DNA from: Eledone cirrhosa
Lineage: Eukaryota
Reading direction: 5' to 3'
Length of the DNA: 64,000 nt
Assembly (NCBI GenBank): GCA_964016885.1
Contig: OZ024745.1
Location: 124,868,001 to 124,932,000 of the forward strand
Part shown: positions 6,339 through 61,171 of the stretch, one piece after another
How the letters are laid out: every line of letters begins with the position of its first letter
Position numbering within the stretch: position 1 is the stretch's first letter
Notes under the pieces: model-generated
Databases searched by the model: none
Told to the model about the DNA's origin: nothing
Seen by the model: the letters and a program-made list of their open reading frames with translations, nothing else
Program-made: the position numbers and the translations under genes

Positions 6339-7319
6339 AATATAAACAGAGAGAGATAGATGGAGAGAGAGAGATATAGGAGGAGGAGGAGGAGAGAGAA
6401 TAGGTAAGACAGATAATTATCTTGAAGTTACGAAAGGAAATTATAAATAACATAAACATTCACGTATATACGTACACACGATCAGAAATTCTGAACTTTT
6501 GCCAAAATGCTTATATTCCTATTAAACAGTTCAATGATTTAAGAAACAGCAATTTAAATGTGGATATTCTATGTTTGGGGACAAGTGGTGTAAGCGAAAC
6601 TTCATTAAATTCTTCTATGTATTTTGGGCCCTGAAGTCATCTTATATATATATGTATATTCATGTATGTCCAAGGCAAATATTTATTTATATTAAAGGCT
6701 TTTTCATATATTCAATAAATTCCAATTAGAAATCCCTAATACACGTACAAGGTATGAGTTTACTCCAGTTTTACTCCGCACCGAATATTAATGTATATAT
6801 TCATACGCACATATATATTTACATATATAAAAGAAGCCCCTATGTATATATTAGTGTATGTTTCTGTGCATGTGTGTTAATTCATGCACACATATGAGAA
6901 CGTCCGCATATATGCTTAGAGGCACACGAAAAGCAGTTATTTATCCCATGTGTCAGAGTCATCAAGTTCCGGTAAATGTAATAATATAATAATATTCAAT
7001 AAAAATAGCCCACAGAGACTTTCAAAATTCATCTTGGGAAATAAATATTTGGATTTTTCAGCGTCGATATGATAGCTATTGTTATCTGTTTTGTATGTAA
7101 TCACTCCTTGAGCAAGCAAATATAACGGAAGTAGGGGATTAATTGAGGCAAGAATTATCAATTTAATATTGCCTCGTATGGTTGCTTCTGTCTGTTGACA
7201 GCTCCCGATTGCTTCGATTCTTCGACCCTCGTTTTAAAATCATTATACTGCGAATTAAATACAAACGATATAGGCTAGATATCAGTATATTATTGAATTT
7301 ATTACAATATTCATAATAA

Positions 7320-7610
7320 TTGTTTCTACTTTTGACAAAGGCCAGCAATTATTCCAGTGCATTACTGGTACTTTATTTTATCGACTCCGTAAGGATGAAA
7401 GGCAAAGTTAACCTTGGCAGGATTTGAACTCAGATCGTAAAGGGACGTAACTATGCTGGAAAGCATGGCGTCCGACTCTCTACCGATACTGCCAGTGAAA
7501 CTTGAAATATTTCCCCGTAGTTGATTATTTCTCAATTATTCTCAATAAAATAAAATACCAGTAATGCACTGAGTAATTGCTGGCCTTGTGCCAAAATAGA
7601 AACAATTATT
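7320..7610. mobile_element. SINE family A (7320-7495, minus) with an inverted 3' fragment (about 7547-7610, plus)
   Basis: Same core and tail as the other family A copies, in opposite orientations. Confidence 0.8.
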
Positions 7611-10173: not shown

Positions 10174-12180
10174 TAAAAAGGAAAAGAAAATGCTGACAGA
10201 TTTATTCCAGTGAAAAATAGTTTAATTAGGAATAAGTATAAATTAGTAATAAGTAATGGTTAGTATTCAGTGTTAGTTTTAAGGTTTTTACCGGTTGCGC
10301 ATTTCAAATGCTTTTCAAAAATAATTTTGAGATAGAGCGTTCGCGATTTGGTTGGTTCTTGAATGTCACGTGAATAAGTACTATAATTTTGATTGGTCGG
10401 TAGAAGTCACGTGAATGTTCAATAATAAAAGAGGTGAAATGATGTATAGTATTTTCATAACACCAAAGTGTGTGTGAGTGTGTCCAGATTGTACGTACTG
10501 CAAGGGAATCCATTAGGCCCTGCCGTATGGGATACTTGTGGATAGAAATGTATGTAGGATGTATATTAATGTAGGTATGTATGTGGACGTATGTGTGTAT
10601 GTTGTGGGTTCGTCTTAGGGAGGAGTGTTTAGACGGGATCCGTATTTGTTAATAAAGTGAGATTCCTTGCTGATGCGCTGGGTGTGGGTGGCATCATCTT
10701 TAAATTTGTAGAGGGGGAAAGATTCTAAAGCTGGGATGATTTTGGGCGGCACAAGTACCAATGTACTCAGCGGTATTTTTCTGTATTCCCGTATTTTGAT
10801 TTGGGATCTATGACAGTCATGCGTTGGCGGAGGCTGTTCTTTGTCTGGCCTATGTATTGTTTTCGACAACCTGAGCAAGTTAATACATATATTACGTTTT
10901 CTGATGCGCATGTGAAATTGTGCTTTACTATAAAACGTTGTCCCTGTTTGAAATAGAATTCCGAACCCTCTATTAGGTTGATGCATATGCCACAGTTTGG
11001 TCTATCGCATTTTTTTTACTGTGGGTTTCGTTGTTGTCGTCGGTAGTACCTTGGCATGTGTTAGGATGTTTTTCATTGACTTAGATTGTCTTTTGCTCTT
11101 TATGATATCATGTGTTCGTAGGATTTGGTTCATTCTATGGTCCTTCTATAACACAGGGATGTTCTGGAGGATAGTGTCAAAGGCCTCATTGTTGAGGGGG
11201 TTGTGTCTGGAGATGTATGGAAGAGCTTTTAGTTTCGGTTGGTTTACTTTAGGGTTTCTAAGGTCCTGGGTACTGAGTTTCAGGGCACGTTGGATTCCAT
11301 TGTAAATTAGTGATGCAGGGTAGTCCCTGTCTATGAGTGTGTCCTTTAGTTCTTGTAGCCGTAAGTAGCAGATGTTTTTATTGGAGACTATAGTACAGAT
11401 TCTCTTGCCTAAGTTGTAGGGAATATTAATGTTAACGAGTCTAGGGTGGCAAGAATTGAAAGGAAGATATTGCTTGGAGTCTGTGGTCTTGTAGTATATG
11501 TCTGTTTCTATTTTATTGTTATGAATCTTAATGAGGATGTCGAGGAAGGGGAGTTGTTGATGGCTGTATTCCATTGTAACATTAATATTCGTGTTGAGCC
11601 CATTTATAAGGGTGTGAAATTCTTTAAGTTTCTCGATGTTTTCGTGCCAAAGGATGAAGCCGTCATCGCTTTCAGTTCTTTTCTATGTGTAAGTGGAGAG
11701 TGTTTCCAAATGTGTTTAGTACTTTAGTGTAGAGGGTGATTTCCAGGTATCCCATGACAAGGATGGCATAAGTGGGGGCCGTTTTTGAAAACGAAGTAAT
11801 TGTTCTCCAAGGTAAAATTGAGTCCTTCTATTAAGAATTCCTTTTTGATGCGTTGTGGCAGTTCCTTGTGGAAATTATCCAGCCAGAATTGGATAGCTTC
11901 TATTCCTGAGGTTGTGAGGGACGTTGGAGTATAGGTTGACTACATCGAACGTCACTAGTAGGGTTTGTTCAGTAAAGGGTATATTAGGGAAGTGGTTGAG
12001 CATATCTAGGTCGTCCCTTATATAGCTTTTAATGTGTTTGAGAAAAAGCTTGAGAAGGGTATGAATGAAGTTGCTAAGGCGGTGGGTTTCGCAAGCGGGG
12101 CCTGCCACGATAGGTCTTAATTTGAGATCATTTGGTGAGGGGACATTGATGACTATGTCTGTGGCCTCCTTGCATGCCTT
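10171..12180 (-). mobile_element. Penelope-like retroelement, 5'-truncated and frameshifted (RT + GIY-YIG), inserted in (TA)n
   Basis: Minus-strand peptides [77 protein letters not shown] and GIY-YIG NVIYVLTCSGCRKQYIGQT. (TA)n on both sides. Decayed HHR (TTGAAAA-GCATT..AATGC-GCAA-CCGG-TA) at about 10288-10320. Confidence 0.9.
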
Positions 12181-12223
12181 ACCTATATATATATATATAT
12201 ATTTTTTTTTTGCATTGTATATA

Positions 12224-23589: not shown

Positions 23590-24357
23590 AATTTGAAAGC
23601 AAGCCATGAATTTATTTACAACATGATTCAATAAATTTCACGGCATGCAAACGGACTGCAATATTTTGACATTTTAATAATCGAAGAAGATATATTCAAA
23701 CAGATCGCTTTTTAGAGCAATCAGATACACGACAAAATTTGTAATTTCTATCTCCCTACCCATGACATAAATACTCAAGAAGAAAAACGTTACAGGAAAA
23801 TAAATAATAATAAGGTTTTCTTCCGTTTGTTATCATTTAGAAACATTCAGAGGAGTCATAATATACTGAATGAAAAACGAGCTTTGATTCAGCATGTTAC
23901 AAGTGTATCACAGAAATTGTAGATGATGCCAGAAATTTTATTTGGGATTGCCATTCATTCTAATCATGCTTTTCCATATTAGGTGGTGGTCAATGCCAAC
24001 ATAAGCATTGAAGTCTCCCATTATGATATATGACTCAGTCTAAACTTCATGTTTGCTACGTCGATGTCAGCAAAGAAGGATTTGTAATCGGACTCCCAGT
24101 TTGGTTCATAGATTTGCGCCACCCACAGAGACCTTCACATTTATATATATATTCAAATACACTCTCGATTTGTATCGATCAGAGATAACACTGTTTTTTT
24201 TCATTATATATATATACATACATACATACATATATACATATATACATATATATATATCCATACTTATACATACACACCCATACACACTCATATATAAATG
24301 TATATATATATACATATATATATATATACACACATATATATATGTTATATATATATA

Positions 24358-41263: not shown

Positions 41264-41756
41264 ATATGTATATACGTGTGTACATATCTATATTCATATA
41301 TATATATATATATATATAATCCCTAAATGTATTTTTTACACGCAGGAATTCATACTTTATTATTATTAATCTCCCCTAAGGTAGAGATAAAACTTGGCCG
41401 TTTGGACTGCTGCTATTTCTAGTGGCAGGACATTCACCTGTCCACCCTGCCTTTTGTCTTTGCACACCTCACCAGACAGAATTATTTCTTCTATCATCCA
41501 CTCTCATCTGGGCATGGTTTTGTATGGCGTCAGTTTGTAATTTGAACTCGGGAATTTCATATTCTCTGAGTGAGAAGAGCCTTCTGAAGATATTTCCCTT
41601 CTCAATAGAAGTCCCCTTGAATTATCCGTTTATTCTGGAAATTGAAACCGCGGTAAAGGCACATATAGTAAGTACAGCGAATTTATTAAAATTTATTTTA
41701 AAACCTCTCTATTTGCAAGACCTTGATTTTATATATATATATATATATATATTTAT

Positions 41757-42288
41757 ATGTAAGTATGCATGTATACGTACATACATATATGTATACAGAC
41801 GTACAGTAGCATGCACATATATATATATATATACATATATACATACATATGCATACAGGTACACATACATATATGCACGTATCAGTTTAGCGGCGCTAAC
41901 GTCGCTTTGTTCGTTTGTAAACAAACTGAACAGCCTGAATTTATGCCATACGGTGTTAAGGCAACCACGTCACCTTTTTGTTCAACACTGACACAGGAAC
42001 GATGTACTAGTTTCAAGCTTGTTAGCTTGAAACTAGTACATCGTTCCTGTGTCAGTGTTGAACAAAAAGGTGACGTGGTTGCCTTAACACCGTATGGCAT
42101 AAATTCAGGCTGTTCAGTTTGTTTACAAACGAACAAAGCGACGTTAGCGCCGCTAAACTGATACGTGCATATATGTATGTGTACCTGTATGCATATGTAT
42201 GTATATATGTATATATATATATATATATGTGCATGCTACTGTACGTCTGTATACATATATGTATGTACGTATACATGCATACTTACAT
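41757..42288. repeat. Fold-back palindrome capping the array (arms 41757-42019 and 42024-42288, loop TGTT)
   Basis: GATGTACTAGTTTCAAGCT-tgtt-AGCTTGAAACTAGTACATC. The only arm difference noticed is one TA unit. Confidence 0.95.
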
Positions 42289-42468
42289 TTAAGTAAGTGC
42301 CATACTAAGAGTGAGAAATGAAATTTCGTTTTCATTTTGTTTCAATTTATCGTTTTCGGTATGCCTGACCGATTTAACTCACTCAATATGCAAATTAGGC
42401 TGCTCAGCCGTTAATTTTCATAAGGAAAGTATATACTTTCGAACGTTCAACTATCTGGCAGATGGGTA

Positions 42469-42513
42469 AACGGTGCTGATGATAGCTAACAAGCTTGAAA
42501 CTAGTACATCGTT
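42469..42513 (+). ncRNA. Minimal type I hammerhead ribozyme, array unit 1 (predicted cut after GUA at 42506)
   Basis: AACGGTG-CTGATGA-T-AGCT-aaca-AGCT-T-GAAA-CTAG-TA-CATCGTT. Stem I extends to GTTCAAC/GTTGAAC (42445-42531). Confidence 0.88.
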
Positions 42514-42934
42514 CCTGTGTCAGTGTTGAACAAAAAGGTGACGTGGTTGCCTTAACACCGTATGGCATAAATTCAGGCTGTTCAGTTTGTTTACAAACGA
42601 ACAAAGCGACGTTAGCGCCGCTAAACTGATACGTGCATATATGTATGTGTACCTGTATGCATATGTATGTATATATGTATATATATATATATATGTGCAT
42701 GCTACTGTACGTCTGTATACATATATGTATGTACGTATACATGCATACTTACATTTAAGTAAGTGCCATACTAAGAGTGAGAAATGAAATTTCGTTTTCA
42801 TTTTGTTTCAATTTATCGTTTTCGGTATGCCTGACCGATTTAACTCACTCAATATGCAAATTAGGCTGCTCAGCCGTTAATTTTCATAAGGAAAGTATAT
42901 ACTTTCGAACGTTCAACTATCTGGCAGATGGGTA

Positions 42935-42979
42935 AACGGTGCTGATGATAGCTAACAAGCTTGAAACTAGTACATCGTT
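42935..42979 (+). ncRNA. Hammerhead ribozyme, array unit 2
   Basis: Identical to unit 1. Confidence 0.88.
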
Positions 42980-43400
42980 CCTGTGTCAGTGTTGAACAAA
43001 AAGGTGACGTGGTTGCCTTAACACCGTATGGCATAAATTCAGGCTGTTCAGTTTGTTTACAAACGAACAAAGCGACGTTAGCGCCGCTAAACTGATACGT
43101 GCATATATGTATGTGTACCTGTATGCATATGTATGTATATATGTATATATATATATATATGTGCATGCTACTGTACGTCTGTATACATATATGTATGTAC
43201 GTATACATGCATACTTACATTTAAGTAAGTGCCATACTAAGAGTGAGAAATGAAATTTCGTTTTCATTTTGTTTCAATTTATCGTTTTCGGTATGCCTGA
43301 CCGATTTAACTCACTCAATATGCAAATTAGGCTGCTCAGCCGTTAATTTTCATAAGGAAAGTATATACTTTCGAACGTTCAACTATCTGGCAGATGGGTA

Positions 43401-43445
43401 AACGGTGTTGATGATAGCTAACAAGCTTGAAACTAGTACATCGTT
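43401..43445 (+). ncRNA. Hammerhead ribozyme, array unit 3 (core variant TTGATGA)
   Basis: C-to-T at 43408 in the CUGAUGA core. Confidence 0.75.
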
Positions 43446-43866
43446 CCTGTGTCAGTGTTGAACAAAAAGGTGACGTGGTTGCCTTAACACCGTATGGCAT
43501 AAATTCAGGCTGTTCAGTTTGTTTACAAACGAACAAAGCGACGTTAGCGCCGCTAAACTGATACGTGCATATATGTATGTGTACCTGTATGCATATGTAT
43601 GTATATATGTATATATATATATATATGTGCATGCTACTGTACGTCTGTATACATATATGTATGTACGTATACATGCATACTTACATTTAAGTAAGTGCCA
43701 TACTAAGAGTGAGAAATGAAATTTCGTTTTCATTTTGTTTCAATTTATCGTTTTCGGTATGCCTGACCGATTTAACTCACTCAATATGCAAATTAGGCTG
43801 CTCAGCCGTTAATTTTCATAAGGAAAGTATATACTTTCGAACGTTCGACTATCTGGCAGATGGGTA

Positions 43867-43911
43867 AACGGTGCTGATGATAGCTAACAAGCTTGAAACT
43901 AGTACATCGTT
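43867..43911 (+). ncRNA. Hammerhead ribozyme, array unit 4
   Basis: Core identical to unit 1. Confidence 0.88.
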
Positions 43912-44332
43912 CCTGTGTCAGTGTTGAACAAAAAGGTGACGTGGTTGCCTTAACACCGTATGGCATAAATTCAGGCTGTTCAGTTTGTTTACAAACGAAC
44001 AAAGCGACGTTAGCGCCGCTAAACTGATACGTGCATATATGTATGTGTACCTGTATGCATATGTATGTATATATGTATATATATATATATATGTGCATGC
44101 TACTGTACGTCTGTATACATATATGTATGTACGTATACATGCATACTTACATTTAAGTAAGTGCCATACTAAGAGTGAGAAATGAAATTTCGTTTTCATT
44201 TTGTTTCAATTTATCGTTTTCGGTATGCCTGACCGATTTAACTCACTCAATATGCAAATTAGGCTGCTCAGCCGTTAATTTTCATAAGGAAAGTATATAC
44301 TTTCGAACGTTCAACTATCTGGCAGATGGGTA

Positions 44333-44377
44333 AACGGTGCTGATGATAGCTAACAAGCTTGAAACAAGTACATCGTT
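44333..44377 (+). ncRNA. Hammerhead ribozyme, array unit 5 (stem III CAAG variant)
   Basis: T-to-A at 44366 breaks the CTAG palindrome. Confidence 0.75.
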
Positions 44378-44679
44378 CCTGTGTCAGTGTTGAACAAAAA
44401 GGTGACGTGGTTGCCTTAACACCGTATGGCATAAATTCAGGCTGTTCAGTTTGTTTACAAACGAACAAAGCGACGTTAGCGCCGCTAAACTGATACGTGC
44501 ATATATGTATGTGTACCTGTATGCATATGTATGTATATATGTATATATATATATATATGTGCATGCTACTGTACGTCTGTATACATATATGTATGTACGT
44601 ATACATGCATACTTACATTTAAGTAAGTGCCATACTAAGAGTGAGAAATGAAATTTCGTTTTCATTTTGTTTCAATATA

Positions 44680-44746
<67 letters not shown>

Positions 44747-44758
44747 TAATATATATAG

Positions 44759-45165: not shown

Positions 45166-45280
45166 AATTGTTTCTACTTCTGGCACAAGGCCAGCCATTA
45201 CCCAGTGTATTACTGGTACTTTATTTTATCGACCCCATAAGGATGAAAGGCAAAGTTAACCTCGGCTGGATTTGAACTCA
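45166..45280 (-). mobile_element. SINE family A, 5'-truncated
   Basis: Core and tail present, head ends just past the B box. Confidence 0.8.
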
Positions 45281-57791: not shown

Positions 57792-60700
57792 TATTATTAT
57801 TATTATTTGCATTTATCTTGCTTTATGTTTATACGAGTTATCACCAAGTCACAACCAGTGACCTCAAGAGACAACAAGGTCCGCCATGTTCAAGAAAGAA
57901 CACACATATTCACACATGCATCCTTAGTGTTTAGACTTGTGATGTACTTATATTGACAGGATCTTCCTTAGTATATGGGCAGTTCCCATTAGTACTATCT
58001 TTTGTATTTCTCCTATACGCGGGTTTCCTGGGATTTGCGATAAGTAGTCGTTAGACCCCTTAGGTATCATTCCCAGAGCGCCTACAACCACTGGTATTGT
58101 TTTAGTTCTCAATTTCCACATTTTTCCAATTTCTATCTCCAGGTCCTTATACTTGCTCAATTTTTCAAATGTTTTTATAGATACATTCTTGTCTATTGGA
58201 ACAGACATATCAATTAGCAGGCATACCCTCCTTTGAAAGTCCTTCAATATTATATCAGGTCTATTTGCATCTATTTTTCGGTCTGTTTGGATTCTAAAGT
58301 TCCACAAGATTGAGATGTGATCTTTTTCAAGTATGGGAGGTGGTTGATGCTCCCACCAATTCTTTTGATGGGGCAGGTCAAAATGCTTACACATTATCCA
58401 ATGTATGTATTGTGCAGCTCTGTCATGCCTGTTTAGGTATTCGGTTGGAGCTATAGGACTGCACATTGAAATTATATGGTCAATGGTCTCTGGTTGTTTT
58501 TTGCATACACGGCATAGTGGGCTGCACCCATTTTTTATTATGTTGGCTTGGTAATTTTTTGTTGGCAGACACTGATCTTGTGCGGATATAATCAGTCCTT
58601 CAGTCTCCGATTTCAGTCCAGAGGATGCCAACCACTGATGGGTTAAAGTTTTGTCAACATCAGGATTGTTAGCTCGCTCTGGGTATTTTCCATACAGAGG
58701 CTTTTCTTGCCATTTCTTAGCCAGTTTCTGTAGCAGTTCTTTCTTTGCAGTTACTTTTACCTGCTTTGCTTTTTCTGTGTTTTCCATTTCAGCAGTAAAT
58801 GGGACTTCTGAAATTTGTAGTCCATTACTGTATCTTTGTGCATCTTTTGTAATGGAATATGATCTTTTGGTGCTTTCGTGTTTCAAAACGAGTTTGATCA
58901 TCCAATCATGTGATTCCCTTAGATATGTGGATAATCCAATTGTTGCAGTTTTCAACGCAATGTCTAACTGGATTAACCCACGTCCTCCTTCTTTCCTAGG
59001 GAGATATATTCTATCTATGTCTGCCTTAGGGTGATGCATTCTGTGCATGGTTAAGAATTTTCGGATTTTTGTATCGAGCCTACGGATCTCTGTGCTTGAC
59101 CAGTTGATGACATTGTAACTGTAGGTTACTACTGGTATGGCAAGCGTGTTTATGGCATCGATCCTATTCCTTGCATTCAATTCCGTTCTTAAGATTGCTC
59201 TGACTCTGCGGTAACATTCCTTCCTTATCCTTTCCCTCATTGTCGAGTGCTTGATTCCGTCTCCTTCACAAACACCTAGATATTTGTAAGTTTGTTCTTG
59301 ATCAAGCTCTCTTATCACGTTCCCCCGATCAAGATTAATGTCTGAACTCTTCAGCAGCTTTCCTCTGGTGAACGTTGCTTTGGCGCATTTATCCAGTCCA
59401 AACTCCATTTTAATGTCATCACTGAACTGCTTCACAGTGGATAATAGCCCTTGCAATTGTTCATCATTTTTTGCAAATAGTTTCAGGTCATCCATGTAGA
59501 ACAGGTGATTAATGGTTTTGTCATAGACTCTATATCCATGTTTTGTTTCATTGAGCATTTTACTTAATGGTATAAGTGCGATGCAGAATAAAAGCGGTGA
59601 TAAAGAGTCACCCTGAAAAATTCCACAATTAATGTTAACTTCTCCAGCTTCCAGTGATTTTGTTTCACTATTCAAAAGGAGTGTCGTTCTCCATGTCCTC
59701 ATACTGAATGACAAAAACCTCCTGACAACGGGGGATATTTTGAAAATCTCTAAACATTTTTCAATCCAACTGTGTGGCAAACTATCAAATGCTTTTTTAT
59801 AATCTATCCAAGCAATCGATAGATTTTTGTGTCTATTATGACAATCTTCCAGTATCATTTTGTTAACCAGAAGCTGATCCTTACAGCCATATGAGCCTCG
59901 TTTACACCCTTTCTGCTCAATGGGAAATAGGTCATTTGTTATCAGGTGGTCATATGTGTATTCAGTTAGGACTGATGTTAAAATTTTATACATTGTGGTC
60001 AAGCAGGTTATCGGTCTGTAATTTTTGGGATTGTTTGTCTCATCATTCTTCGGTAGCAGGAATGTAATGCCGTTAACTAGCCATGATGGTATCTTTTCTG
60101 GCTCCTTAACTATTTCATTGTAAAGTTGGGCTAACAGCTCATGAGACTCTGTGAAGGCATTTATCCAAAAGTTTTGTATTTTGTCTTTTCCTGGGGATTT
60201 CCATTTGCTGGTTTTTCTTAGAGCCAAGCGCAGCTGTTCAACTGTTATATTTTCCCATGTTTGTTCTTCAAGGTGAGCTGTTTCTTTCATTTGTCTGTCT
60301 ATCCATGGGGCATGTATGTTATGAACTTTTTCTTCGGCCCAGATCTTTTCCCAGAATTCTTGCACTTCCTCCTTGGGTGGTATTGATTTAGCAGTTATTG
60401 TTGACTTACCAATTTTTCTGTAGAAGTTTCTTTGGTTGTTTTTGAACATATTATTGTCCTTATAGAATCTAGATCGTTTTTCAAAGCGCCTTATACGAGC
60501 AGCTTTGGCCGACACTTTTTGCTTGATTGTTTCTATCAGCATGTCTATGTCACATGTTGATCTTATACTGTACTTTTTTTTTAATTTTCTAAGTTTAGTT
60601 TGTTTAACATGTTCACCTACTTTATAGTTTGTTAAAATTTCTATGTCAGATCGGAGAAGGTTTATTTGGCGATTGATGTTATCTTGCCAAGTAGATTTCT

Positions 60701-61080
60701 TGTGGGAATTCCTTTGTTTTTTCATCTTCACTCCACATAAGTGAGTGGTGACTTTAGCCGATGCATAATAGAGATGATTTAAGTCAGTAATGTTTATTTT
60801 GTTTGTGATGATAATGTTTTTGAGAATTATGTTAGTCTTGTGTATTATCTTTTGGTTCTGTTTGGAGTTCTGGATCTTAGGGAGGGTGTCTCGTTCCCCC
60901 ATGTCAGATTCTTTCATTTTCATCCATTCGATCATAATTTCATCCTTCAAGTTGGCAAGTTCATTCTCATTCATTTCTTTATCATTTACGATCTCATTAT
61001 TTTCATTTGGAGTTTCATCCTGAGCATGCACTCCCTCCACTTTTTCGCTCCTTTCTTTAATTTGTTCTGTTGCCAGTGAT
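57791..61080 (-). mobile_element. Dong/R4-clade non-LTR retrotransposon, 5'-truncated, ending in (TAA)n
   Basis: Single RT+RLE ORF, about 140-bp 3' UTR and (AAT)n terminus. Confidence 0.9.
57948..61040 (-). CDS. Reverse transcriptase plus restriction-like endonuclease of a Dong/R4 element (N-terminus missing; the GTG start is not a real start)
   Basis: WKSPGKD, NYRPITCL, EQKG, WIDYKKAFDS, GIFQGDSLSPLLF, HLFYMDDLKL, YKYLGV; zinc knuckle CRVC..ETIDHIISMC; RHD; RPDII..IDMSVP; EKLSKYKDL. The frame stays open upstream to 61103 without an ATG. Confidence 0.93.
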   Translation of the reverse strand: MEGVHAQDETPNENNEIVNDKEMNENELANLKDEIMIEWMKMKESDMGERDTLPKIQNSKQNQKIIHKTNIILKNIIITNKINITDLNHLYYASAKVTTHLCGVKMKKQRNSHKKSTWQDNINRQINLLRSDIEILTNYKVGEHVKQTKLRKLKKKYSIRSTCDIDMLIETIKQKVSAKAARIRRFEKRSRFYKDNNMFKNNQRNFYRKIGKSTITAKSIPPKEEVQEFWEKIWAEEKVHNIHAPWIDRQMKETAHLEEQTWENITVEQLRLALRKTSKWKSPGKDKIQNFWINAFTESHELLAQLYNEIVKEPEKIPSWLVNGITFLLPKNDETNNPKNYRPITCLTTMYKILTSVLTEYTYDHLITNDLFPIEQKGCKRGSYGCKDQLLVNKMILEDCHNRHKNLSIAWIDYKKAFDSLPHSWIEKCLEIFKISPVVRRFLSFSMRTWRTTLLLNSETKSLEAGEVNINCGIFQGDSLSPLLFCIALIPLSKMLNETKHGYRVYDKTINHLFYMDDLKLFAKNDEQLQGLLSTVKQFSDDIKMEFGLDKCAKATFTRGKLLKSSDINLDRGNVIRELDQEQTYKYLGVCEGDGIKHSTMRERIRKECYRRVRAILRTELNARNRIDAINTLAIPVVTYSYNVINWSSTEIRRLDTKIRKFLTMHRMHHPKADIDRIYLPRKEGGRGLIQLDIALKTATIGLSTYLRESHDWMIKLVLKHESTKRSYSITKDAQRYSNGLQISEVPFTAEMENTEKAKQVKVTAKKELLQKLAKKWQEKPLYGKYPERANNPDVDKTLTHQWLASSGLKSETEGLIISAQDQCLPTKNYQANIIKNGCSPLCRVCKKQPETIDHIISMCSPIAPTEYLNRHDRAAQYIHWIMCKHFDLPHQKNWWEHQPPPILEKDHISILWNFRIQTDRKIDANRPDIILKDFQRRVCLLIDMSVPIDKNVSIKTFEKLSKYKDLEIEIGKMWKLRTKTIPVVVGALGMIPKGSNDYLSQIPGNPRIGEIQKIVLMGTAHILRKILSI

Positions 61081-61171
61081 TCCGCCCCTGTGAAGGGGAA
61101 AGTCTAATATTTGGGTCTTTTGGCCCAAATATTTGAACATTTTACTTTAAAAAAGAAAAAAAAAAAAAAAC

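What the first reader, a model, noticed from the sequence alone, without database searches (positions are those of the whole stretch)
41757..44676. Ribozyme-punctuated 466-bp tandem array: candidate cephalopod retrozyme / circRNA replicon
Seen: about 5.7 almost identical non-coding 466-bp units with five full minimal type I hammerheads (CUGAUGA / AGCU-aaca-AGCU / GAAA / CUAG / GUA). Each has a 7-bp stem I extendable to roughly 20 bp. The rest of the unit is hairpin-rich: AAGGTGAC-gtg-GTTGCCTT, TCAGTTT..AAACTGA, the perfect palindrome GAAAGTATATACTTTC and an alternating purine/pyrimidine tract. The composite sits in (TA)n. Established: tandem repeats with minimal type I HHRs and a palindromic stem III are the architecture of metazoan non-LTR retrozymes and PLE pLTRs, which cleave as dimers and give circular RNAs. 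Inference: a plus-strand transcript would be cut after 42506, 42972 and so on into 466-nt monomers, and the array is a recent rolling-circle cDNA of such a circle, mobilised by a PLE RT. I cannot check whether this family is already described.
Basis: partly seen in the sequence, partly recalled or inferred. Interest (0 to 1): 0.92.

Follow-up and report, generated by a model that had tools for sequence, protein, structure and literature searches.

The report
Ribozyme repeat copied from edited RNA
This is one of thousands of genome-wide copies of a non-coding repeat with a hammerhead-ribozyme motif, likely pasted into TA-repeat DNA by a Penelope-type reverse transcriptase that probably runs round a small RNA circle, and its copies carry an excess of A-to-G changes that likely records RNA editing written back into the genome.

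Summary
The array is real: 5.7 units of 466 bp with five type I hammerhead motifs, three of them intact. The family is large: 23,786 ribozyme motifs and 1,022 young tailed ends in a 3.0-Gb genome. Ends are not permuted. Direct arms stop at unit position ~307 and inverted arms at ~247, the two-end 'tail' signature of Penelope-like elements (PLEs). 70 of 97 young insertions have an inverted arm, usually joined by microhomology. Arms run up to 15 units and cross the cleavage site freely (333 crossings, 3 stops within 10 nt). Units of one insertion share variants across both arms (17 cases against 1), which points to a single monomer, probably circular, as template; some dimer and trimer templates also show. 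Insertion-wide variants are A>G-biased (13 vs 2 T>C; single-unit variants 18 vs 26), mostly in a 50-bp hairpin, which suggests ADAR edits fixed by reverse transcription. One control region was also A>G-biased. Not shown: transcription, cleavage, circles, the partner PLE, the host species. Verdict: a new non-LTR retrozyme family with unusually direct genomic evidence for its mechanism.

The parts
41730..41756 (.). Left (TA)n target tract
   Evidence: sequence; inverted arm runs into it
41755..42027 (-). Inverted 5'-truncated arm, unit positions 444-466 and 1-248, ending at 'end 1' (no tail)
   Evidence: arms 99-100% complementary
42024..42027 (.). Head-to-head junction, 4-nt microhomology in ribozyme stem II
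   Evidence: (overlap of 4 nt)
42024..44677 (+). Direct arm, 5.7 tandem units (one of 468 bp, four of 466 bp, terminal part to unit position ~307)
42470..42512 (+). Type I hammerhead motif 1 (intact): U-U at base of stem II, 4-bp stem II, 2-bp palindromic stem III; predicted cut after 42506
42936..42978 (+). Hammerhead motif 2 (intact); predicted cut after 42972
43402..43444 (+). Hammerhead motif 3, C3>U change, probably impaired
43868..43910 (+). Hammerhead motif 4 (intact); predicted cut after 43904
44334..44376 (+). Hammerhead motif 5, stem III palindrome broken
42507..42972 (+). One monomer, cut site to cut site; its two ends are predicted to pair in a long stem I
   Evidence: -156 kcal/mol, z -7.76; circular fold
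42626..42739 (+). Alternating purine/pyrimidine tract predicted to form a ~50-bp hairpin; holds most insertion-wide A>G variants of the family
44617..44677 (+). ~60-nt 'tail' between end 1 (unit ~247) and end 2 (unit ~307)
44677..44757 (.). Right (TA)n target tract

Best explanation
This is a young insertion of a high-copy, non-coding hammerhead-motif repeat family (a non-LTR retrozyme) that is likely moved by a Penelope-like, probably Neptune-type, reverse transcriptase/endonuclease, which would nick (TA)n DNA and copy a ribozyme-cut, probably circular RNA monomer several times round, with A-to-G changes that likely come from ADAR editing of that RNA. Shown: family size, two fixed 3' ends, tandem plus inverted arms, microhomology junctions, variants shared along an insertion, their A>G bias, and covarying stem I. 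Inferred: transcripts are cut and ligated into circles of about 466 nt. A PLE protein, possibly as a dimer, primes two cDNAs from nicks on the two target strands, one starting at end 2 and one at end 1. Each cDNA runs on for a random length (about 1 stop per kb) and the two are joined head to head. Because one RNA templates every round, an inosine in it becomes a G in every unit. A minority of insertions copy dimers or trimers or switch template. My odds by step: retrozyme moved by a PLE 0.9; monomer template read repeatedly 0.75; covalent circle 0.65; ADAR origin of the A>G excess 0.6.
For: Size: 10,718 exact cores, 23,786 with N7 and one loop base free, 4,542 young-subfamily units, 1,022 young tailed ends in (TA)n. 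PLE signature: in 77 loci picked by an internal 25-mer, 69 arms end at unit 291-310, about 63 of them running into (TA)n by eye. In 97 young insertions, 70 have an inverted arm; 63 of the 65 closed ones end at 242-251; 51 of 70 junctions overlap by 1-8 nt. Tail plus inverted copy is described for PLEs (PMC8557442) and the tail marks two internal RT starts, with both strands cut and extended (PMC11167929). Young RT+GIY-YIG elements with a C-X4-CxxC linker are in the genome, and two families appear to run into (TA)n at their 3' ends (by eye). Continuous template: 333 crossings of the cut site, 3 of 162 stops in positions 1-10 against 3.2 expected; arms up to 14.9 and 8.7 units. Single template: variant in every unit of both arms 17 times, of one arm only once; TA-tract pairs identical 0.67 within against 0.10 between insertions. 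A>G: 13 vs 2 T>C among 27 insertion-wide variants, 18 vs 26 among 164 single-unit variants, Fisher p 0.003; about 1.7 expected if inherited from donor mutations; genome-wide 325 vs 128 copies in a 35-mer of the tract, 2.75-fold per site; L165 has three identical units with about ten extra G and no C; target-site TA tracts are symmetric per tract, 35 vs 26 and 13 vs 12. Ribozyme: in the core N7 varies by subfamily and loop II varies, other core changes are sporadic; 96.8% of cells paired, one stem I pair seen as G-U, U-G and A-U.
Against: No RNA evidence was obtained. Rfam does not recognise the motif. No autonomous partner sharing sequence was found: none of 6 PLE proteins matched next to a family copy in a way that suggests a shared element in 110 family loci, and the two family copies in 40 PLE loci are about what chance gives. 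The ribozyme 31-mer meant as a null also shows a 2.2-fold A>G excess (197 vs 53), so the bias is not confined to the hairpin. The strict subset (no indel ambiguity, 3+ units or both arms) is only 6 vs 2 of 18, p 0.12; outside the tract 2 vs 1 of 11. Raw flank counts lean the same way (244 G vs 141 C), and G also appears in only some units of the distal TA run (9 vs 1). Only 18 of 64 loci with 3+ tracts are fully identical. L208, L250 and L151 show ordered dimer or trimer patterns and L153 switches haplotype. Stops are in excess at positions 1-31 (20 vs 10.2, window chosen after looking). In vitro, the PAc PLE used uncleaved RNA, and only 1 of 9 Xenopus retrozyme dimers cleaved. Covariation is only 2 pairs with two-sided change among related sequences.
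Confidence: 0.68

Rival explanations
1. Same PLE-mobilised family, but the template is a linear uncleaved read-through transcript of a tandem donor array; the ribozyme is weak or dispensable and arrays are simply copied from arrays.
For: Ordered dimer and trimer patterns in L208, L250 and L151; uncleaved RNA was the dominant PAc substrate; free crossing of the cut site fits uncleaved RNA equally well.
Against: Variants in every unit of both arms (17 vs 1); sister insertions L155, L181 and L227 each carry their own uniform tract; 5' truncation alone would shorten arrays over generations; core conserved across 80-100% subfamilies.
Confidence: 0.17
2. The template is a linear cleaved monomer and the RT jumps from its 5' end to the paired 3' end of the same RNA, as in the DRT2-type repeat synthesis recalled from a search listing; no ligation is needed.
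For: Monomer ends are predicted to pair; excess stops at positions 1-31; it explains uniform arrays equally well.
Against: No excess of stops at positions 1-10, and no recurring indel at the cut site in the per-unit listing; circles are shown for coral, mussel and axolotl retrozymes.
Confidence: 0.08
3. The mechanism is as in the best explanation, but the A>G excess comes from selection for G-U-tolerant pairing, microsatellite slippage or polymerase error rather than ADAR.
For: 11 of 13 sites lie in a slippage-prone tract; ribozyme control also biased; strict subset not significant; 4 of 13 sites are predicted unpaired.
Against: Selection cannot raise a class about 7-fold above supply (13 vs 1.7); C>T, equally G-U-tolerant, is 2 of 27; single-unit variants are symmetric; L165 cluster.
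Confidence: 0.35
4. An ordinary satellite or minisatellite homogenised at the DNA level, or an assembly artefact.
For: Near-identical units; two fetched arrays abut N gaps; this locus was not checked against raw long reads.
Against: Over 1,000 dispersed insertions with fixed 3' ends, variable 5' ends and inverted arms; strand-asymmetric variants; family present in contigs of public runs X2 and X5.
Confidence: 0.03

Closest known systems
Metazoan non-LTR retrozymes (Cervera and de la Pena 2020, PMC7229834; Li et al. bioRxiv 10.64898/2026.07.22.740005)
   Same: Non-coding tandem units with one type I hammerhead each, low GC (36%), thousands of copies, strongly self-paired monomer; U-U at the base of stem II and 2-bp stem III as in axolotl HHR_Amex2.
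   Different: Unit of 420-540 bp is above the 150-400 of the 2020 paper though inside the 51-972 of the preprint. In the parts read, those papers describe no fixed 3' ends, tails, inverted arms or microsatellite targets and leave the partner and circle-templating as hypotheses. Expression and circles are shown there, not here.
EN+ Penelope-like elements (Neptune; PAc Poseidon; Naiad) and their pLTRs
   Same: Tandem plus 5'-inverted truncated arms, tail on one end only, internal RT starts, microsatellite target, hammerhead in the repeat.
   Different: No ORF; tail ~60 nt against 30-40; either arm can be many units long; no sequence-sharing autonomous element found.
Non-autonomous Chlamys elements such as MRC1 (PMC8557442 passage)
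   Same: Non-coding PLE passengers with multicopy head-to-tail insertions.
   Different: Those share 3' sequence with an autonomous family, and most Chlamys elements lack hammerheads; green algae.
ADAR A-to-G hypermutation of viral RNA (PMC8586724 passages) and L1 twin priming (recalled)
   Same: Strand-specific A>G clusters avoiding 5' G (1 of 13 sites); inverted 5' arm with microhomology.
   Different: Here the changes are fixed in chromosomal copies and repeated in every unit; both arms start at the family's own 3' ends and overlap in sequence.

Membership tests
Non-LTR retrozyme | Tandem non-coding repeats with a type I hammerhead in at least two consecutive units | tested here: met
   Units 1 and 2 intact and consecutive; ORFs in the array are 114-203 aa stop-to-stop, mostly over the simple tract; the one scanned (203 aa) has no Pfam hit
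Non-LTR retrozyme | Dispersed multi-locus family without LTR, PBS or PPT | tested here: met
   for dispersal and lack of LTR structure; PBS and PPT not searched separately
Non-LTR retrozyme | Self-cleavage of the RNA (monomer or dimer) | not testable with these tools
   Only conservation and covariation
Non-LTR retrozyme | Expressed as linear and circular monomer RNA | tested here: inconclusive
   No RNA holder listed; indirect genomic signs only
Type I hammerhead | Conserved core, stems I-III, cleavage triplet | tested here: met
   10.1-11.1 is U-U rather than G-C; numbering recalled
Type I hammerhead | Match to an Rfam hammerhead model | tested here: not met
   (34 lowest hits not shown)
PLE-type insertion | 5' truncation with inverted 5' copy | tested here: met
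   70 of 97
PLE-type insertion | Two 3' ends giving a tail on one side | tested here: met
   63 of 65 inverted arms end at 242-251; direct arms at 291-310; tail ~60 nt
PLE-type insertion | Microsatellite target bias | tested here: met
   About 63 of 69 ends in (TA)n in the sample not selected for flanks
Autonomous PLE | RT plus GIY-YIG ORF | tested here: not met
   None in the array or linked to family copies; so not filed as an autonomous PLE
pLTR derivative of a named PLE family | Sequence shared with the terminal repeat of an autonomous element | tested here: inconclusive
   None among 40 PLE loci, a small sample of 10,597 GIY-YIG candidates

The most novel reading that the evidence does not exclude
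A viroid-like RNA circle is being rolled into the germline genome by both subunits of a Penelope reverse transcriptase at once, and each insertion is a many-fold printout of one RNA molecule, including its ADAR edits. The ~1,000 young arrays would then be a fossil single-molecule record of germline A-to-I editing, and a route by which editing drives the evolution of a ribozyme replicon.
Probability: 0.4. Interest if true: 0.85.

Novelty: new member of a known kind. Interest (0 to 1): 0.66.

Why it matters
The retrozyme papers read here propose, but do not show, that circles are the RT template and that PLEs are the partner. How PLEs make tandem and inverted arms is stated to be open. This family gives a very young, short, thousand-insertion data set in which partner type (tail, inversion, TA target), template unit (shared variants) and an RNA-stage mutation bias can be read from DNA alone. 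It also gives a 466-nt substrate for in vitro tests. If the A>G bias is ADAR's, RNA edits are entering the genome heritably.

Tried and rejected
DNA search of the own genome with the whole unit returned nothing, because common words are skipped; patterns were used instead. Rfam found no hammerhead; its miRNA-family hits are just the inverted arm and the simple tract, far below gathering scores. Sequencing runs: no RNA holder listed, which says nothing on expression; X1 laid one 35-bp piece and X6 nothing. Permuted-end model rejected. A family copy 1.3 kb behind a PLE ORF in L062 sits in the (TA)n after that element's end and is a chance neighbour. No partner found; a side-by-side comparison of 3' ends across PLE families was not done, so which PLE family is the partner stays open. 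First alignment A1 had wrong coordinates and was discarded. Dropped before counts: L158 (no exact tail), added back with four other loci; inverted-arm candidates L186 and L232 excluded as not genuine; the plus arm of L148 not counted; variant 163 (32 arrays, lineage marker; A in most older subfamilies by eye) left out of the spectrum. The 5'-U neighbour excess (10 of 13, p 0.01) is confounded by the TA tract and is not used as independent support. Earlier scan findings: three look-ups, nothing.

Full report
OBSERVATION. TRF finds 42024-44680, period 466, 5.7 copies, 99% matches. Five hammerhead cores lie 466 bp apart; copy 3 has C3>U and copy 5 a broken stem III palindrome, so 3 of 5 are intact. 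The stretch 41755-42027 is an inverted copy of unit positions 444-466/1-248 (numbering from the predicted cut), joined to the direct arm by 4 nt of microhomology. The direct arm ends at unit ~307 and the inverted arm at ~247, both in (TA)n. Rfam has no hit at gathering score and no hammerhead among 150 listed of 184 weaker hits.

RIBOZYME AND FOLD. Across 98 copies of 77-100% identity and 42 chosen rows, the core is constant apart from N7 and sporadic single-copy changes; loop II varies. On the named structure 96.8% of 1,218 cells pair; one stem I pair occurs as G-U 18, U-G 13, A-U 8; only 2 of 29 pairs change on both sides, and the rows are related. U-U at the base of stem II with a 2-bp stem III matches axolotl HHR_Amex2, which cleaves weakly alone and better as a dimer (PMC7229834). 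The monomer folds at -156 kcal/mol, z -7.76, with its ends paired and a ~50-bp hairpin at unit 120-233. A hairpin at unit ~95-120 keeps its pairing through different sequences in different subfamilies (by eye). Cleavage itself is inferred.

FAMILY. G000 is 3.0 Gb. Exact pattern counts, reversed controls 0: core 10,718; core with two free positions 23,786; internal 25-mer 21,732; young-subfamily marker 4,542; young tail running into (TA)n 1,022. Full monomers are 422-538 bp in 37 loci. All sampled loci come from contig C1, because listings stop at 100. Contigs of public run X2 (5,523 laid) and X5 (6) hold the family and its subfamily variants; 6 runs under 4 organism labels were listed. The host species was not determined: named homologues of a resident PLE are bivalve proteins at 53-63%.

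INSERTION ANATOMY. In 77 loci picked by the internal 25-mer, 69 arms end at unit 291-310, about 63 in (TA)n by eye; tail-less arms end near 246-250. In 97 young insertions (98 given; picked by the tail pattern, so their direct end is by construction) 70 have an adjacent inverted arm. Of 65 closed inverted arms, 63 end at 242-251, one at 206 and one at 310. Junction overlap is 1-8 nt in 51, 38 nt in 1, blunt in 5, with added bases in 13. Direct arms exceed one unit in 56 of 97 (max 14.9), inverted arms in 36 of 70 (max 8.7); the two lengths are uncorrelated, rho 0.11. An inverted truncated copy, a one-sided tail and microsatellite bias are described for EN+ PLEs (PMC8557442). For PAc the tail lies between two internal RT starts, both target strands are cut and extended, and a dimer is predicted (PMC11167929). 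Two primings, one per strand, explain the anatomy (inference). The genome holds young RT+GIY-YIG families, up to 97-98% identical in protein, with a C-X4-CxxC linker that I read as Neptune-type (motif). Two appear to end in (TA)n, one with ends about 60 nt apart (by eye on two copies). None shares sequence with this family, so the partner is a class-level inference.

TEMPLATE. cDNA arms cross the cut site 333 times; 3 of 162 stops fall in positions 1-10 (3.2 expected), though 20 fall in 1-31 (10.2 expected, post hoc) and 22 in 241-270 (11.2). So the template is continuous there. Where both arms cover a position, a variant is in every unit of both arms 17 times and in one arm only once. Variable TA tracts are identical in 0.67 of 1,056 within-insertion pairs and 0.10 of 65,010 between-insertion pairs; only 18 of 64 loci with 3+ tracts are wholly uniform. 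Related insertions L155, L181 and L227 each have their own uniform tract over 9 units. Of 62 multi-unit insertions 17 carry a rare fixed variant, against 0.48 single-unit variants per unit. This fits a one-monomer bottleneck at most events. Against a pure monomer model: L208 alternates two haplotypes, L250 repeats an ordered pair in both arms, L151 repeats a trimer, and L153 switches after six units. Axolotl retrozymes also give multimeric RNAs.

A>G BIAS. In 102 loci, 27 distinct insertion-wide variants (lineage marker 163 left out) include 13 A>G and 2 T>C, while 164 single-unit variants include 18 and 26 (Fisher 0.003). Without indel-ambiguous sites it is 11 vs 2 of 23 (0.010); in the strict set 6 vs 2 of 18 (0.12); outside the tract 2 vs 1 of 11. 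Scaling by other classes predicts 1.7 A>G. Genome-wide, a 35-mer at unit 212-246 has 6,633 exact copies, 325 more with A>G allowed (12 sites) and 128 more with T>C allowed (13 sites): 2.75-fold per site; copies are not independent events. The ribozyme 31-mer, meant as a null, gave 197 vs 53, 2.2-fold. Its loop A's are free and its U's constrained, but the result does not support hairpin specificity. L165 has three identical 76-nt tracts with about ten extra G and no C. Target-site TA tracts total 244 G vs 141 C but are symmetric per tract. A change present in every unit and biased to the sense strand most simply arose in the RNA. ADAR is the likeliest cause (neighbour rule from PMC8586724; high editing in coleoids is recalled); slippage and selection remain rivals. 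The 2020 paper raised RNA editing as a possible cause of circle heterogeneity.

LITERATURE SEEN. bioRxiv 10.64898/2026.07.22.740005, parts 1-3 of 5; PMC11167929, parts 1-2 of 4; PMC7229834, passages and parts 3-4 of 6; passages only of PMC8557442, PMC13282606, PMC4209133, PMC7761336, PMC8586724. No supplements were read; those of PMC7229834, PMC4209133 and the preprint may list related motifs. Searches listed no paper describing an octopus or cephalopod retrozyme family; searches listed none showing edited or single-template retrozyme arrays. These were judged from listings; subscription journals, Repbase and Dfam are not covered.

VERDICT. A new family of a known class, non-LTR retrozymes, filed on tandem ribozyme anatomy with cleavage and expression untested; it works like a non-autonomous PLE. 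Its value is the mechanism readable from its copies.

Noticed in passing
window 10627-12186 (-): Broken Neptune-type PLE RT-endonuclease remnant, 58% identical to the L057 family and 40% to L051.
   Followed up: partly
window 57948-61103 (-): 1,051-aa open frame with a strong RVT_1 hit (E 2e-29), probably a young LINE.
   Followed up: partly
L052 about 6500-7450 (+): A second, unrelated two-unit tandem of 459 bp with a hammerhead-like motif carrying a very long stem II, also in (TA)n; more such families probably exist.
   Followed up: no
L051, L052, L056, L059, L060, L062, L070: Young PLE family (97% protein identity) with a ~1.1-kb 3' region and a hammerhead-like motif whose core positions 3 and 8 appear to be U and A; ends in (TA)n. 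Candidate partner.
   Followed up: partly
L054, L055, L058, L064, L065: Second young PLE family with a minimal hammerhead ~400 nt after the stop codon, also with U-U at the base of stem II.
   Followed up: partly
L040, L053, L056, L060, L063, L064: Two further recurrent hammerhead-like motifs, not linked to the PLE ORFs.
   Followed up: no
L151-L152: A 19-unit insertion (15 direct, 4 inverted) with a repeating trimer pattern, the longest seen.
   Followed up: partly
window 45180-45280: Sequence resembling the 3' part of an octopus tRNA-derived SINE (recalled, not tested).
   Followed up: no
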